Assembly (NCBI GenBank): GCA_951406725.2
Contig: OX597817.1
Coordinates: 86,552,001-86,616,000 of the forward strand
Direction of reading: 5' to 3'
DNA from: Octopus vulgaris
Lineage: Eukaryota
Length of the DNA: 64,000 nucleotides
Shown: piece after piece, positions 7,370 to 63,780 of the stretch
Position numbering within the stretch: the first letter of the stretch is position 1
Layout: every line of letters starts with the position of its first letter
Made by a program: the position numbers and the translations under genes
Notes under the pieces: generated by a model
What the model saw: the letters and a program-made list of their open reading frames with translations, nothing else
Told to the model about the DNA's origin: nothing
Database searches by the model: none

Positions 7370-7970
7370 GAAAAACAACTTAAAACTTACAGAAATCCAC
7401 CGTCTAAACCCAGCTCTTGCGAATTTTGAAAATGATCTTTTGAACATGATTAAATGGCTGAAGTTTTCCAGATACACAAATCCTTTCCAGAAACTCCTCT
7501 CTGAGAAATCTCTACAATGAAATTAACTCCAGATTTGCTCATCTTATCGGATAAGACCGGGAATATTTATTCTGTACCTCCAAGTCTTTATAATGACTTG
7601 ATATTGAAAGAGCTTAATTCTGGATATAAACACGAAAGCAAAAATGCTTCGGAAGAGATTAATGATACTTATCTAGATATCATCTCTAGTTTGGGCCTAC
7701 TTGATAGAACCCAACCTTATGCTCCAAAAACTCCCCATTGTCATTTGGAGGATCATAAGTCTGATGTTTTATCAAATCCTTCGATTAGGTTAATCTTCCG
7801 GACCAAAACTGATTTGGGCAGAATTAGTAAATATATTAAAGATTAGATTATTCCCATCCTGAAAGATAAGGTTCAGCTTCCCCTATGGAACTTTACTGGG
7901 AACGTTATCTTATGGTTCGACTCCCTTACTTATAAGCCTAATTTAGACTTTATCCAATTTGATATCTCAG
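7370..7970 (+). mobile_element. Penelope-like element RT N-terminal fragment (degenerate)
   Basis: LANFENDLLNMIKWLKF..NPFQ, SDKTGNIY, DHKSDV.SNPSIRLIF.TKTDLGRISK, W..TGNVILWF...FIQFDI; with stops and frameshifts. Confidence 0.8.
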
Positions 7971-8697
7971 GAAATGGAACAATCTTCCACTGGTAGCTTT
8001 GGTTCGTAATGCTTTGAATGTCGCACACTTTCCCACATCAAACTCTTTTTGTCTACTTAAATGGTTTGATAGAAAACTCAACAGCATTGGCATTAAGCTG
8101 GCTTGATGTTGTTGGTGTTGTCTCCTGTTTTCGCTTTTTTTTTCCCCATTTTTCTTCTGTCTGATTTTTGTTTACTAGAATCTCTGCATTGTGTTGTCGG
8201 TCCTTTGTTTCTTGCTGTTTGTTCCTTTGTATAGCTTGAAGCATCAACAATGAGGCATGGCTGATAATCTTGTTATCTATTGCTTTCTCTCTCTCTCTCT
8301 CTCCCTCTACCCCCTCTCTCTCTCTCACTCATCTAACGTTCAGGGCTTAGGAAGACTTTCTGGCAATCTCGTTCCACTTTTTAAATCCTTATTCAGTAAG
8401 GTTTGATTAAGTATTGTTACACCCTATTCTGAATGTACACAGTTGCTGAGGGGCGCTATTACATAATACCGGTGTGACATAATACCAGAGTAACACACTA
8501 GCTGAGTGACATCATGGTCTAGTGAAACAGTTAGTTAACAAGAATACCGGTGAAAATGTCACGATAAAAATTATATTTTTAAAATATTAATAAAAAATGA
8601 GAAGCTAAACGTTTCACTGAAAAACGTTTCTGTGATAGTTTTTAAGATGACATAATGGAATAGTGACATTTAACGAAATTAATATTTAAAAGAGATA

Positions 8698-45845: not shown

Positions 45846-46314
<469 letters not shown>

Positions 46315-46533
46315 TACACCACCGTTGTATAGCCCTAGGAAGCATCGACGCCTCCTGATGGCTTTGACACATTTTTCCCTGTGTCCTTATATACATTTAC
46401 GAAGGGAGACAAACACCCCCGGCCGCCGGAGCTGCATCTAGGGACACGTGTTTCAGGATCATTGTTTTTCATCGGCCTAGAGTAGCAGACACCGGTCAGC
46501 TGGCGATATTTGTCTCGACTTCGTATTGTATAT

Positions 46534-46580
46534 ATCTAGGCCGATGAAGGACAATGATCCTGAAACACGTGTCCCTAGAT
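46534..46580 (+). ncRNA. Minimal type I hammerhead ribozyme (CCGAUGA variant)
   Basis: atctagg CCGATGA agga-caatga-tcct GAAA c-acgt-g TC cctagat; all three stems paired. Confidence 0.88.
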
Positions 46581-46903
46581 GCAGCTCCGGCGGCCGGGGG
46601 TGTTTGTCTCCCCTTCGTAAATGTATATAAGGACACAGGGGGAAATGTGTCAAAGCCATCAGGAGGCGTCGATGCTTCTTAGGGCTATACAGCGGTGGTG
46701 TACCCCCCTACTGTCACGTTCGTGTTAGATTGACAGTATACAACCATTCTATCGCCCCACCACCGTACATGTATCTACAAGAGATTTAGAAATTTAGTAT
46801 TAGTATTTCTTATTTTGATAATCAGTGAATAGACTTCACTGAATTATAGATATATACAATACGAAGTCGAGACAAATATCGCCAGCTGACCGGTGTCTGT
46901 TAC

Positions 46904-46948
46904 TCTAGGCCGATGAAGGACAATGATCCTGAAACACGTGTCCCTAGA
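46904..46948 (+). ncRNA. Minimal type I hammerhead ribozyme (second tandem copy)
   Basis: tctagg CCGATGA agga-caatga-tcct GAAA c-acgt-g TC cctaga. Confidence 0.88.
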
Positions 46949-47183
46949 TGCAACTCCGGCGGCCGGGGGTGTTTGTCTCCCCTTCGTAAATGTATATAAG
47001 GACACAGGGAAAAATGTGTCAAAGCCATCATGAGGCGTCGATGCTTCCTAGGGCTATACAGCGGTGGTGTAACCCCCTACTGTCACGTTCGTGTTAGATT
47101 GACAGTATACAACCATTCTATCGCCCCACCACCGTACATGTCTCTACGAGAGATTTAGAAATTTAGTATTTCTTATATATATA

Positions 47184-48019
47184 CTAGCAGAAATGCCCGG
47201 CGTTGCTCGGGGCTGAATTACTTGAAAGTACTGTTAATGATTGCACTGAATGATGATGATTATTCAGGCAAATATTGATATAAGTTTACGCTGGGAGATA
47301 AGGACTTAACGATCAAACGTGTGCCATTGCATTGTTTTGGGGGAACCAAATTTCTGATGAGCATTATAGGGGCACCAACTTTAAGTTTGAGAATGTGTGG
47401 TGGTAGTCCGGGGTGCTCAAAGGAATTGAGTACCTCTATTGGATAGTTGATGACGTCCTCTGGGTCAGGAGTTGTATCGATAGACTGATATACATAGACT
47501 TCCCCAGGAATGAGTTTTAGCATTTCATCATTAATATGGTGAACAGTTTTATTCCTCGGGGCCAGTATAGCCTTTTTGCCAATCCAATCCATATTCTGAT
47601 AATTAGCTTGTAGATCTTGGAACACTGCATCAGAAGGCGTCTTAACAATGGTACAAATGGAATCGATGGCAATATTACCATTTTCATCCCCTGGTATTTT
47701 GCCTTCGCCAAGTGCAATGAGGGTGTGAGGAAATGCTGCTGATGTGATATTACGTCGCATATGAGCACGCATATTGGTGTGAAGTTTGAGAGTTACTTCC
47801 CTTAATTTTAAAAAATGCATTAAAATGGGAAAAAATGATGGTAAATTATTTGTAAAATCGTAGACTCATCGTAGACGCGCGCTAATACCCAGAAGGGCTC
47901 GATATGAATCACGACTATAAGATACTCGGTTTTGGTTAAACTGCATCACAAAATGTGGGAGTAGTTAGGAATCTAAATCGGAGTAGACAGACACACAACC
48001 TTTCTTTTATATATAAAGA
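47184..48019 (-). mobile_element. Non-autonomous Helitron (family HA) retaining a Pif1-like helicase fragment
   Basis: Minus strand a|TC...cccgagcaacgccggg hairpin...CTAG|t; ORF 47260-47820 LHTNMRA, AILAPRN..VHHIN, YPIEVLNS..PGLPPHILKLKVGAPIMLIRNL...CNGTRL. Confidence 0.93.
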
Positions 48020-48020
48020 T

Positions 48021-48675
48021 TTTCGTCCTAAAAAACTTTGTATGGAGTGAATGGTTACCTCTATGGAAATATATACACACACATTATACATACATGTGTG
48101 TATAGATGAATATATAAATACATTTAAATATCTATATACACTTTTGGATGATCTTTCTGCTTCTTAGAGATAACTTTAGATGTTATTTTCGTCCTAAAAA
48201 ACTTTGTATGGAGTGAATGGTTACCTCTATGGAAATATATACACACACATTATACATACATGTGTGTATAGATGAATATATAAATACATTTAAATATCTA
48301 TATACACTTTTGGGCGATCTTTCTGTTTCTTAGAGATAACTTTAGATGTTATATTCGTCCTAAATAACTTTGTATGGAGTGAATGGTTACCTCTATGGAA
48401 ATATATACACACACATTATACATACATGTGTGTGTCTATACACACTTTTGGGCGACTGCTACTTAGAGATAACTTTAGATGTTATTTTCGTCCTAAAAAA
48501 CTTTGTGCGGAGTGAATGGTTACCTCTATGGAAATATATACACACACGTTATACATACATGTGTGTATAGATGAATATATAAATACATTTAAATATCTAT
48601 ATACACTTTTGGGCGATCTTTCTGCTTCTTAGAGATAACTTTAGATGTTATATTCGTCCTAAATAACTTTGTATG
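48021..48675. repeat. ~167-bp tandem repeat, about 4 copies
   Basis: ttcgtcctaaaaaactttgtatggagtgaatggttacctctatgg recurs at ~48021, 48188, 48354, 48487 and partially at 48654. Confidence 0.95.
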
Positions 48676-49314: not shown

Positions 49315-49595
49315 TAAATATTACATCTAGTTTCACTTTATTCGTTGCACACTGTGTGTGTGCGTTTGCGTGTGCTGTAAACCAGACTAAGAAAAGCATT
49401 TGACATACACACCAGAATGTGAGTTTTCTGTAAATTTTGCTTAATTGGAGTTTAAATTTTAAAAACTGGACCTGGCATGACCCGATGCATTCTACTCTTA
49501 AAAATGCTAGGTAAATTGTAATTGAAGAAATCCTATATTGTAGATTTCTATAACTTACAAAGGGAGGCAGATAAAATCTGCCTTTTATAATAAGA
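49315..49595 (-). mobile_element. Helitron-like family HB 5' segment
   Basis: Minus strand begins TCttattataaaaggcagattttatctgcc; matches 51393-51670. Confidence 0.75.
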
Positions 49596-50229
49596 CTAGC
49601 AGTATCGCCCGGCGTTGCTCGGGTTTGTAAGGGAAATAACTATATAAGCATTTTTAGAGAGTTATAGCCAAAAAATAGCAAAAATGCAAAAAATGGAAAA
49701 AATATGATGGTAAATTTTTTTTTAAATCGTTGACTCATCGTAGACATTTTTAGAGAGTTACTTCCCTTATATAATAGCGAAAAAATGCATTAAAATGGAA
49801 AAAAAACGATGGTAATTTTTTTTTTAAATCGTAGACTCATGTAGACGCTTTCTTAGCCATTTCTGTTTTGGTGTCTTCAAGCCATGAAGTCGTTGTTCTA
49901 AAAGAACACTGGTCTCCTTGACAACGCATTACGACGTTGATTTCCTTACACTCCCTTCCTCACAGGTGCAGGTGTGAGCGTGGACGCCAACTCCGCCGCC
50001 ATCGACACACGAAAAATTATGCATTAAAATGGAATAAAAAATGATGTTAAATTATTTTTAAAATCGTAGACTCATCGTAGACGCGCGCTAATATTCAGAC
50101 GGGCTCGATATGAATCACGACTATAAGCTACCCGAATTTGGTTAAACTGTACCGCAAAATGTGGGAGTAGTTAGGAATCTAAATCGAAGGGGACAGACAC
50201 TCACACAACTACAGTTTTATATATATAGA
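49596..50229 (-). mobile_element. Non-autonomous Helitron family HA
   Basis: TC start, cccgagcaacgccggg hairpin plus CTAG; internal repeats of aaatcgtagactcatcgtagac. Confidence 0.9.
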
Positions 50230-51019: not shown

Positions 51020-51378
51020 GATTACTCTCTTCCAAGAACATTTTCACTCACTCTTAGCTCTTAGCTTCCCATACATTTTACTCATGTATCTATCAGCGTC
51101 ATAGACAGAATACTTTCACTTTAGTCTTCCTCAAATCACTCTGTCGCTATTTACTTTCATTTTATTCGTTGCCCACTGTGTGTGTGTGCGTTTGCGTGTG
51201 GTGTAAACCAGACTAAGAAAAGCATTTGACACACACACCAGAATGTGAGTTTTCTGTAAATTTTGCTTAATTGGAGTTTAAATTTTAAAAACTGGATCTG
51301 GCATGACGCGATGCATTGTACTCTTAAAAATGCTAGGTAAATTGTAATTGAAGAAATCCTATATTGTAGATTTGTATA
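51020..51378 (-). mobile_element. Family HB segment, inverted relative to 51435-51810
   Basis: Reverse complement of parts of 51435-51810. Confidence 0.8.
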
Positions 51379-51392
51379 TATATATATATATC

Positions 51393-52170
51393 TCTTATTA
51401 TAAAAGGCAGATTTTATCTGCCTCCCTTTGGGAGTTATACAAATCTACAATATAGGATTTCTTCAATTACAATTTACCTAGCATTTTTAAGAGTACAATG
51501 CATCGCGTCATGCCAGGTCCAGTTTTTAAAATTTAAACTCCAATTAAGCAAAATTTACAGAAAACTCACATTCTGGTGTGTGTGTCAAATGCTTTTCTTA
51601 GTCTGGTTTACACCACACGCAAACGCACACACACAGTGTGCGACGAATAAAATGAAAGTAAATGTAATATTTGTTTCTGTCTATCACGCTGATAGATACA
51701 TGAGTAAAATGTATGGGAAGCTAACAGATAACAGTGAGTGAAAATGTTCTTGGAAGAGAGTAACTTAGCGACAGACTGATTTGAGCAAGACTAAACTGAA
51801 AGTATGAAACAGTGTTTATGTATAAACAGACGACACTTATATAAACCCTTTCGTTACCAAACCGCCCGAATTTACCTATTCATATTTAAATGAGAATATC
51901 AGAGTAAATCTCTTTAGTACATTCGTGAAAACACGTATTATACTTCGTAAACAGTTCAAATACAGTTTTGTACAAAAATCGAAGTGTAATTTTAATTCCG
52001 TGAATTATGGGAGATTTTTTTCCGAAATTTGTTCCTATTGTGTTTTCAAAATTTGTAATTCTGACAAAAAATGGATACGAATTTCATTATATCAAGCAGC
52101 GAGTCAGAATTCGAAGGATTTTCTACTGAAGACCTTCATAAATCTAACTCTATGACTGAAAAAAAAAAGC
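51393..52170 (+). mobile_element. Helitron-like family HB (5' TC end; 3' end not identified)
   Basis: TCttattataaaaggcag start, repeated at 52568 and at 49595 on the minus strand. Confidence 0.65.
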
Positions 52171-52171
52171 A

Positions 52172-52567
52172 TCTTTATATAAGAGTGAAGTTGTGTGTCT
52201 GTCCCCTTCGATTTAGATTCGTAACTACTCCCACATTTTGCGGTGCAGTTTAACCAAAAGCGGGTATCTTATAGTCGTGATTCATATCGAGCCCTTCTGG
52301 GTATTAGCGAGCGTCTACGATGAGTCTACGATTTAAAAAAATTTACCATCATATTTTTCCATTTTAATGCATTTTTTTCGCTTTTATATAAGGGAAGTAA
52401 CTCTCTAAAAATATCTACGATGTGTCAACGATTTTTTAAAAAAATTTACCTTAATTTTTTTTCTATTTTTAATGCATTTTTTTGCTATTTTTTGGCTATA
52501 ACTCTCTAAAAATGCTTATATAGTTATTTCCCTTACAACGCCGAGCAACGCCGGGCGATACTGCTAG
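52172..52567 (+). mobile_element. Non-autonomous Helitron family HA (short variant)
   Basis: a|TCtttatataagag...ccgagcaacgccggg..ctgCTAG|t. Confidence 0.9.
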
Positions 52568-52655
52568 TCTTATTATAAAAGGCAGATTTTATCTGCCTCC
52601 CTTTGTAAGTTATAGAAATCTACAATATAGGATTTCTTCAATTACAATTTACCTA

Positions 52656-52699
<44 letters not shown>

Positions 52700-52701
<2 letters not shown>

Positions 52702-53223
52702 ATAATAATTCTCTAAAAGAGATATAGACAGTAACTGCTCGATAACATAAGGGACTAAAGCCATCTGAATATGGCTAGGGACAGGGCAGGGTGGTGGTGT
52801 TACTGTTGCATTTAGCCCCAGGCGAACATCGACGTCACCAGAAAGGCTCGACACCGTCACGGTGTCCTTATCCTGCAAAGGGAGGTAATTCCCCGATGAA
52901 GCGGAAACCACACACGGACCATGGTTTCAAGGTGTATTGCCTATCGTCGGCGTGTGGTAGGCTTCCGCTCCTCGACGAATTCTCACTCTGCAGGATATTC
53001 ATATATAGATTTTCAAGCAAAATACATTTGCTGATTTCGAAAATCTGTTCGAAAGCAATAATAATTCTCTAAAAGAGATATAGACAGTAACTGCTCGATA
53101 ACATAAGGGACTAAAGCCATCTGAATATGGCTAGGGACAGGACCCCCACCACCCTGCCCTGTCCCTAGCCATATTCAGATGGCTTTAGTCCCTTATGTTA
53201 TCGAGCAGTTACTGTCTATATCT
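52700..53223 (-). mobile_element. Retrozyme-like or non-autonomous PLE: 356-bp unit (~1.2 copies) plus inverted segment, in (TA)n
   Basis: 52701-52785 repeats at 53057-53141; 53147-53223 is inverted; hammerhead on the minus strand. Confidence 0.85.
52911..52956 (-). ncRNA. Minimal type I hammerhead ribozyme (CCGACGA variant)
   Basis: Minus strand cacacg CCGACGA t agg-caataca-cct t GAAA c-catg-g TC cgtgtg. Confidence 0.82.
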
Positions 53224-53271
53224 ATAGAAATCTACAATATAGGATTTCTTCAATCAGCACAATTTACCTAG

Positions 53272-53303
<32 letters not shown>

Positions 53304-63014: not shown

Positions 63015-63054
63015 CAGGACTAGAACTGTTTCATTCAAGAGAAATCTTCAGGTC
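63015..63054 (-). ncRNA. Hammerhead core in the probable inverted 5' terminal repeat of a PLE
   Basis: Minus strand gac CTGAAGA t ttc-tctt-gaa t GAAA cagttc TA gtc; stem III imperfect. Confidence 0.55.
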
Positions 63055-63780
63055 GCTACACCTGTAGCTAAAATCTTCTTCACTCTCCTACAGAAACACT
63101 TCCCCACCCAACATAAGTACTACACTATCCTAAATAAGAACACTATTAGACTCTCCTACTCTACCACGCCCAATCTAGCCAGGAACCTAGCCAACAACAA
63201 TGTGAAAAAACTTAACATATCTACTTTTTCCGAGGCCCATCCAACGTCCGATAGCAATTGCAACTGCCCTGATAAAACCACCTGCCCCCTCAACAACAAC
63301 TGCCTACAGAGGGACCTAGTATATACATGCGAGGTAAGATCAGGCCCTGACGATAAAAGAAAATCCTACATCGGAATGACGTCAAACAGCTTTAAGACAC
63401 GTTGGTACGCACACACACACTCGTTCCGGCGACCGGATAAATCCAACCAAACTACCCTCGCCGCCCACATCTGGTACCTTAAAAGGAACTCCATCCCCTT
63501 CAAGACCAAGTGGAAACTACTACAGAAGGCGCGTTCGTACACAGGAGGCCATACCTGCTGTGACCTTTGCATTTCGGAGAGCCTAGAGATCTTGTTCGCC
63601 AAAGGCCCTCTCCTTAACAAGATCTCAGAACACTCCCCAAATTGCATGCATAAGAATTATGCAAACTACAAGAACTATAGACCTACCCGGCAACCAGATT
63701 AATGACACCCCACCCACAAACCCCCCCCAATCCCACTGTTCCCCTAGCACCCCCGACTACCTTTTCTCCTAAGACCTTTC
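63055..63780 (+). mobile_element. 5'-truncated Penelope-like element: RT-EN linker plus open GIY-YIG endonuclease (Hydra-clade-like); coding part ends at 63702
   Basis: KHFP..HKY..ILNKNTIRLSYS, CNCPDKTTCPLNNNC, LVY...YIGMTSNSFKTRWYAH..SF, LAAHIW, KW...CDLCISE..EI, LLNK..E..CMH; between TA/TG tracts. Confidence 0.92.

What the first reader, a model, noticed from the sequence alone, without database searches (positions are those of the whole stretch)
52700..53223. Second CCGA-core hammerhead element, with the ribozyme embedded in a long rod-like fold
Seen: 356-bp unit with minus-strand cacacg CCGACGA t-agg-caataca-cct-t GAAA c-CATG-g UC cgtgtg. Stem I is extended by further complementary blocks (agcggaa/ttccgct, then tatcctgca at 52869 with tgcaggata at 52989). 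It shares the U4C core variant and a CAAU-starting loop II with the 46.5 kb family despite otherwise unrelated sequence. Inference: a distinct hammerhead subclass in which the CAAU loop II makes a conserved tertiary contact with the stem I extension.
Basis: partly seen in the sequence, partly recalled or inferred. Interest (0 to 1): 0.72.

Follow-up and report, generated by a model that had tools for sequence, protein, structure and literature searches.

The report
Penelope-type retrozyme with variant hammerhead
This is one of over a thousand near-identical copies of a small, protein-less repeat that likely jumps through an RNA copy and carries a hammerhead motif predicted to cut itself; its odd core letter is real and recurs in several sister families, but the predicted loop contact matches the textbook one, so it is a variant of a known kind, not a new subclass.

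Summary
A type I hammerhead (core CCGACGA, loop II CAAUACA, palindromic stem III) lies at 52900-52970 (-) inside a strong rod (z -7.6). It sits in a young 360-bp non-coding unit (356 bp here) with tandem copies, an inverted 5'-truncated arm, a tail and (TA)n targets: the footprint of a Penelope-mobilised non-LTR retrozyme. C4 is fixed in this family (1209 exact copies with C4, none with another base).

The 'distinct subclass' is not supported. The same CAAUACA loop, the U-R-H/U internal loop and the rod also occur in canonical-U4 families of this genome. C4 rows are not one clade (11 changes, AU p 7e-6). The loop II/stem I contact matches the one solved for the Schistosoma hammerhead.

What remains unusual: about 40% of pattern hits genome-wide carry C4, and a candidate C4 hammerhead also lies in an autonomous Penelope-like element. 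U4C is in print for a viroid, where it slows cutting. Cleavage is untested. The scan has already noted 359-360-bp retrozyme families on other DNA of this genome, and U4C in phage hammerheads.

The parts
52900..52970 (-). Type I hammerhead with stem I extension: UAC/U internal loop, core CCGACGA (U4C), U10.1-U11.1 mismatch, 3-bp stem II with loop CAAUACA, palindromic stem III; predicted cut between 52917 and 52916
   Evidence: Sequence; two-sided base changes across 34 family rows; cleavage inferred, not tested
52869..52997 (-). Long rod carrying the hammerhead at its tip
   Evidence: Fold z -7.6; similar rods in U4 and C4 sister families
52701..53056 (-). Full retrozyme unit, 356 bp (4 bp shorter than most copies); 3' end runs into (TA)n at 52657-52698
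   Evidence: Tandem junction and copies; the two small indels also show against public contigs
53057..53141 (-). 5'-truncated partial tandem copy (pseudo-LTR-like)
   Evidence: 100% identical to 52701-52785
53137..53223 (+). Inverted 5'-truncated second arm
   Evidence: two-armed layout in most of 39 insertions
53031..53035 (-). ATCAG motif resembling the U2 snRNA proximal element; predicted transcription start near 52976
   Evidence: ATCAG at -57 to -61 in 9 of 10 U2 loci, and at -78 to -95 from the core in 10 of 34 hammerhead rows against 7 hits in the rest of the 200 bases; promoter role inferred
52611..52698 (+). Left copy of a duplicated flank (about 46 bp plus (TA)n)
   Evidence: 93.8% identical to 53223-53303 over 81 bp
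53223..53303 (+). Right copy of the duplicated flank
46313..47170 (+). Second retrozyme family (369-bp spacing, two + copies and an inverted copy) with CCGAUGA core, A10.1-U11.1, loop CAAUGA; UAC/U internal loop in the intact copies

Best explanation
It is a young copy of a 360-bp non-coding repeat, likely a Penelope-mobilised non-LTR retrozyme, whose type I hammerhead has a C at core position 4 and is predicted to cut slowly, likely using the standard loop II/internal loop I contact. Working model: (1) an snRNA-type element inside each unit starts transcription about 26 nt ahead of the core (inferred from motif position). (2) The hammerhead cuts after GUC; with a 2-bp palindromic stem III it would work best as a dimer of tandem units (palindrome shown; dimer inferred from known animal hammerheads). 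(3) The 360-nt monomer would be ligated into a rod-shaped circle in which the core is mostly folded away (predicted). (4) A Penelope-like RT/GIY-YIG protein in trans would copy the hammerhead-sense RNA into (TA)n, giving tandem units, two diverging arms and a tail (layout shown; enzyme inferred, partner not found). C4 is a tolerated change that has arisen or reverted many times and is not tied to any one loop.
For: Copy anatomy in 39 insertions: arms end at unit position 323 or about 367 in (TA)n, with scattered 5' ends, as described for Penelope-like elements (PMC8557442, passages). RNA intermediate on this strand: A>G makes up 7 of 15 variants shared by several units of one insertion against 4 of 53 single-unit variants, p 0.0013. 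Structure under selection: the extension helix, which was not a search filter, has two-sided changes in 6 of 6 pairs, and the inner stem III pairs stay palindromic. Position 4 is U or C in this architecture: 3498 U and 2365 C hits against reversed controls of 80 and 96; purines give 546 against 255, and about 2 of the first 100 listed look like this superfamily. Contact letters are as in Schistosoma. U4C lowers activity in vitro yet supports a viroid in vivo, and U10.1-U11.1 is known (PMC3088659, passages and section 8; axolotl HHR_Amex2 in PMC7229834).
Against: No cleavage assay. Copies do not begin at the predicted cut (1 hit against 7 at a control site; 2 of 61 5' ends within 2 nt); this fits a sealed circle but equally an uncut RNA. 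Circle versus linear multimer template was not resolved. A mutational scan of a type III hammerhead found low activity for changes in CUGA (PMC9901934, passages), and 8 of 9 predicted Xenopus retrozyme dimers did not cleave in vitro (bioRxiv 10.64898/2026.07.22.740005). The active-compatible fold lies 8.8 kcal/mol above the predicted minimum (U4 families 4.7-17.6). No autonomous element sharing this unit's sequence was found in the two Penelope-like families examined. Core conservation is partly built into the pattern searches. One older, unrelated-looking family has A at position 4.
Confidence: 0.68

Rival explanations
1. The ribozyme is effectively dead or dispensable in this family. C4 drifted in, and the element is copied from uncut multimeric transcripts by a Penelope-type enzyme.
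For: No excess of 5' ends at the cut. Two unusual features at once (C4 and U10.1-U11.1). Low activity of CUGA mutants in a scan. 8 of 9 Xenopus dimers inactive. Naiad elements spread without a canonical hammerhead (PMC8557442).
Against: Family A and family E are 66% identical over 319 nt yet keep the core, GAAA, GUC and a palindromic stem III. Helices around the core show two-sided changes across families. Position 4 is nearly confined to U or C in this architecture.
Confidence: 0.17
2. C4 is positively selected as a brake: a slow ribozyme lets the ligated circle survive long enough to be reverse transcribed for many laps, which is why several young families fixed it.
For: 11 changes of state on the tree, at least 9 forced by well-supported branches. 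About 40% of net pattern hits carry C4. C4 also in 37 of 44 copies of a candidate hammerhead in an autonomous element. G10.1-C11.1 in only 1 of 34 rows. Arrays of up to 15 near-identical units in one arm.
Against: A fully canonical family (CUGA, G10.1-C11.1; L063, L137) is also young and tandem. U-to-C is a transition, so neutral toggling also predicts many changes. Some U4 rows inside C4 families may be decay after insertion.
Confidence: 0.12
3. One reading: a distinct hammerhead subclass in which C4 and a CAAU loop II go together through a special tertiary contact.
For: Both families in this window have C4 and a CAAU-starting loop, and both are fixed within the family.
Against: CAAUACA with U4 (L066, L141); other loops with C4; same internal loop in both groups; C4 not a clade; contact letters match Schistosoma.
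Confidence: 0.03

Closest known systems
Metazoan non-LTR retrozymes (Cervera and de la Pena 2020, PMC7229834; parts 2-3 of 6 read): mussel 350-390 bp repeats, axolotl Rtz_353 with HHR_Amex2
   Same: Tandem non-coding unit of similar size, one type I hammerhead per unit, short palindromic stem III, strongly self-paired predicted circle; HHR_Amex2 also has a U-U mismatch at the base of stem II.
   Different: C at core position 4 fixed in the family. Two-armed Penelope-type insertions into (TA)n. Circular RNA and cleavage not shown here.
Non-autonomous derivatives of Penelope-like elements (Li, Clavereau and Pollet, bioRxiv 10.64898/2026.07.22.740005, parts 1-3 of 5 read; Craig et al. 2021, PMC8557442, passages)
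   Same: Partial tandems, inverted 5'-truncated arm, tail of about 40 bp, (TA)n targets; autonomous Penelope-like elements with intact frames are present in the genome.
   Different: No autonomous element sharing this unit's sequence was found (two families checked). The unit carries an snRNA-like promoter motif.
Schistosoma mansoni Sm-alpha type I hammerhead (as described in Dufour et al., PMC2632901, passages)
   Same: Internal loop in stem I with a single-strand U and a strand ending U-A-C; loop II starting with C and ending with A.
   Different: U4C, U10.1-U11.1, 3-bp stem II and a 7-nt loop (CAAUACA rather than CAAAUA).
U4C viroid hammerhead (Ambros and Flores 1998; not held, seen only as cited in Perreault et al. 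2011, PMC3088659)
   Same: Same core change.
   Different: There a rare variant of one viroid; here fixed in several high-copy animal families.
Penelope pLTR hammerheads (Cervera and de la Pena 2014, PMC4209133; parts 1-2 of 4 read)
   Same: Palindromic helix III, presumed dimer action, location in Penelope-type repeats.
   Different: Those minimal forms have a long helix II with G10.1-C11.1 and no clear loop 1 contact; the core variant named in the parts read is U3-A8, not C4. The candidate in the autonomous element found here (L114) has the long helix II and C4.

Membership tests
Type I hammerhead ribozyme | Three helices around the core with helix I open | tested here: met
Type I hammerhead ribozyme | Core C3 U4 G5 A6 N7 G8 A9 / G12 A13 A14 A15.1 / U16.1 H17 | tested here: not met
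   All met except position 4 (C). U4C is a described natural variant. No Rfam RF00163 hit for this copy; a canonical sister family scores 32.2 bits, below the cut-off of 34.
Type I hammerhead ribozyme | Letters for the loop II / internal loop I contact (3' A of loop II; U and extrahelical pyrimidine of loop I) | tested here: met
   the contact itself is inferred from sequence
Type I hammerhead ribozyme | Site-specific self-cleavage | not testable with these tools
   Needs an in vitro assay
Metazoan non-LTR retrozyme | Non-coding unit of 150-450 bp, dispersed and in tandem, one type I hammerhead per unit | tested here: met
   ORFs inside the unit were not listed separately
Metazoan non-LTR retrozyme | Highly self-paired predicted circle | tested here: met
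   Circular fold -119.6 kcal/mol, z -6.0 against 60 shuffles
Metazoan non-LTR retrozyme | Expressed as linear and circular monomer RNA | tested here: inconclusive
   Only contigs of runs with guessed type were available; A>G excess points to an RNA stage
Non-autonomous Penelope-like element | Partial tandems, inverted 5'-truncated arm, 30-40 bp tail, microsatellite target | tested here: met
   (tail about 44 bp); compared with PMC8557442
Non-autonomous Penelope-like element | Shares its 3' sequence with an autonomous Penelope-like element | tested here: inconclusive
   No match in the two autonomous families examined; other families not examined
Proposed C4 / CAAU-loop subclass | C4 and CAAU loop II occur together and form one lineage | tested here: not met

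The most novel reading that the evidence does not exclude
Animal retrozymes and their Penelope-type helpers repeatedly select a throttled hammerhead (C4, plus loss of the G10.1-C11.1 pair) because a slow cutter keeps the RNA circle intact for rolling reverse transcription. About 40% of the type I hammerheads in this genome would then be working ribozymes that searches demanding CUGA miss.
Probability: 0.2. Interest if true: 0.65.

Novelty: new variant of a known kind. Interest (0 to 1): 0.36.

Why it matters
The element is a known kind, but it shows that a supposedly strict core letter can be fixed as C in young, successful animal families. Descriptors and Rfam models that expect CUGA therefore undercount hammerheads, here by up to about 40% of pattern hits. 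Near-identical sister families with U4 or C4 give natural pairs for testing what the ribozyme does for Penelope-type elements, a question the papers read leave open.

Tried and rejected
Rfam scans of the window and the stretch: no hammerhead hit, only microsatellite-driven miRNA noise.

Expression: no RNA holder listed. Four coded runs laid were contigs only; two gave one 390-nt contig spanning the unit, which cannot tell a circle from a tandem. Position 4 in other species was not examined beyond run X7 (another organism label, no change at position 4).

Truncation at the cut as a sign of cleavage: not found. Single-circle template: mosaic A>G patterns fit a circle or a multimer alike.

The GIY-YIG frame beside the hammerhead in L043 first looked like the partner; it is a separate neighbour on the other strand. 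A second Penelope-like family (window 63043-63702) showed no recurring hammerhead in its 3' region. Local alignment of U2 upstream regions to the units found nothing useful; only the fixed-offset motif count did. The idea that C4 stabilises an inactive fold is not supported: energy gaps overlap between C4 and U4 families.

Literature: 'hammerhead' + 'U4C' gave one paper. 'hammerhead ribozyme' + 'octopus' and a retrozyme/cephalopod search gave no description of this family. A core-motif text search was pure noise. Lunse et al. 2017 on Penelope-associated hammerhead variants and Ambros and Flores 1998 are not held and were not seen; the first, and supplements of PMC4209133, PMC7229834 and the bioRxiv preprint (not read), may already list C4 variants.

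Full report
Setting. The window lies in a 2.8-Gb, microsatellite-rich genome (G000). Earlier scan notes call it octopus-like; I did not test that.

Observation. The hammerhead runs 52956-52911 on the minus strand, core CCGACGA, predicted cut between 52917 and 52916. The rod is real: z -7.6, and -6.2 for the unit. Stem I is not a plain extension: after 6 bp there is a UAC/U internal loop, then 11 more pairs. The base of stem II is U-U. Stem III is the palindrome ACCAUGGU. Rfam misses the motif, but gives a canonical sister family 32.2 bits on Hammerhead_1, the only hammerhead row among the 150 of 165 shown.

What carries it. A DNA search found 1769 candidates; 47 matches were listed, the full-length ones 97-100% identical. 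The exact 26-nt core pattern occurs 1209 times with C4, 0 times with another base at position 4, and 3 times with G5 changed; the family is too young for this to show selection. In 39 insertions (186 segments) the unit is 360 bp and forms tandems, mostly in two diverging arms. One arm ends at unit position 323, the other about 44 nt further, both in (TA)n, and 61 5' ends are spread along the unit. This is the layout described for Penelope-like elements (PMC8557442, passages). Unit size, hammerhead type and fold match non-LTR retrozymes (PMC7229834, parts 2-3), which a 2026 preprint derives from Penelope-like elements (parts 1-3). The window's copy has one full unit, an 85-bp partial tandem, an 87-bp inverted arm and an 81-bp flank duplication; its second arm ends atypically at 345.

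Testing the subclass. A loose pattern gives 2365 hits with C4 (reversed control 96), 3498 with U4 (80) and 546 with a purine (255). The lists show only the first 100 places. From these I took loci and kept 72 distinct hits with at least 5 of 6 stem I pairs. The 3' internal-loop base is U in 71 of 72. The 5' strand is U-R-H in 35 of 41 C4 rows and 31 of 31 U4 rows. The extension pairs (3 of 4 or better) in 61 of 72. On a tree of 64 rows (4 of this family's rows kept, 8 dropped as near-copies; core columns masked), position 4 changes 11 times, at least 9 forced by starred branches, and one C4 clade is rejected (p-AU 7.4e-6). Some of these changes may be decay of single copies. Rods form in two U4 and three C4 families (z -6.0 to -7.0), and not in two other U4 loci (z about 0). 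In a 34-row alignment the extension helix has two-sided changes in 6 of 6 pairs with 72.5% of cells paired, the three upper stem II pairs covary, the inner stem III pairs stay palindromic (94% and 82%), the last loop II base is A in at least 90%, and 10.1-11.1 is unpaired in 21 of 34 and G-C in 1. Stem I was a filter and the core was fixed by the pattern, so they are not evidence there; rows are related.

Comparison with print. [quoted passage not shown] The element has those letters, so the predicted contact is the textbook one. Perreault et al. report that U4C lowers activity in vitro yet supports viroid infectivity, and that U10.1-U11.1 occurs naturally (PMC3088659, passages and section 8). 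A search for hammerhead plus U4C returned only that paper; Lunse et al. 2017 could not be read. Against activity: CUGA mutants were weak in a pairwise scan (PMC9901934, passages), and 8 of 9 Xenopus dimers did not cut.

Mechanism, step by step. Transcription (inferred): ATCAG stands at -57 to -61 in 9 of 10 U2 loci and at a fixed distance ahead of the core in 10 of 34 rows, many of the others being truncated, plus the intact 46.9-kb copy; this puts a start near 52976. The lead came from earlier scan notes. RNA stage (supported): among variants shared by several units of one insertion, 7 of 15 are A>G on the hammerhead strand, against 4 of 53 single-unit variants (p 0.0013); A-to-I editing is my reading of this. 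Cleavage (inferred): dimer action is expected from the short palindromic stem III (PMC4209133, parts 1-2). Circle (predicted): -119.6 kcal/mol, z -6.0, with the core 8.8 kcal/mol from an active-compatible fold. Copies read through the cut without a pile-up of 5' ends, which fits a sealed circle or an uncut RNA. Insertion (layout shown, enzyme inferred): the genome holds young Penelope-like families with intact 778-aa frames bearing RT-like motifs and a weak GIY-YIG match; Pfam gave no hit on the whole frame, and 5 of 11 relatives carry PF26215. The label 'Hydra clade' is recalled, not tested. This family's 3' repeat has a candidate type I hammerhead with a long stem II and CCGAAGA in 37 of 44 copies, though its fold is no better than shuffles (z 0.25). 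It shares no sequence with the unit studied.

Verdict. A real hammerhead in a known kind of element. The loop contact and the rod are ordinary. The repeated fixation of C4 in young animal families is the part I did not find described in the papers searched, and it is untested. Earlier scan notes report 359-360-bp retrozyme families in this genome and U4C in phage hammerheads. New variant of a known kind; interest 0.36.

Noticed in passing
L112-L115; L114:4822-4925 (+): Young autonomous Penelope-like family with intact 778-aa frames, tandem and inverted copies; its 3' repeat holds a candidate hammerhead with C4 (37 of 44 copies), a long stem II and N17 varying between C and A.
   Followed up: partly
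window 63043-63702 (+) and 7379-7972 (+): Fragments of other Penelope-like families; the first is the GIY-YIG end of a young high-copy family with no recurring canonical hammerhead in its 3' region.
   Followed up: partly
G000:C1:15417805-15417841 and many others: An older, variable repeat family fits the loose hammerhead pattern with A at position 4 and a longer spacer; it makes up a large share of the first 100 purine hits.
   Followed up: no
L192 (G000:C14:72707000-72711300): An array of 11 segments, mosaic for A>G at four places and also for A/T at unit position 191, in both arms; the A/T mosaic is not explained by A-to-I editing.
   Followed up: partly
L018, + arm: Both units of one arm carry C3 and C4 changed to T while the other arm is intact.
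   Followed up: no
window 52611-52698 and 53223-53303: Second arm ends at unit position 345 and is followed by a duplicated flank with a small indel, unlike the usual end at 323.
   Followed up: partly
window 26803 (-), 58188 (-), 58662 (-), 9858 (+): Further loose hammerhead-descriptor hits; 26803 has a canonical core and a 4-bp stem III.
   Followed up: no
L063, L137 (G000:C1:21143250-21144700): A fully canonical young 353-bp retrozyme family, nearly identical in flanks to C4 copies such as L031; a natural control pair.
   Followed up: partly
window 48019-48587: Tandem repeat of 166 bp (97% match) with a 133-bp variant.
   Followed up: no
window 49504-49662, 51330-51484, 52501-52688: Another short repeat family flanks the element on the left; the insertion target is part of it.
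   Followed up: no
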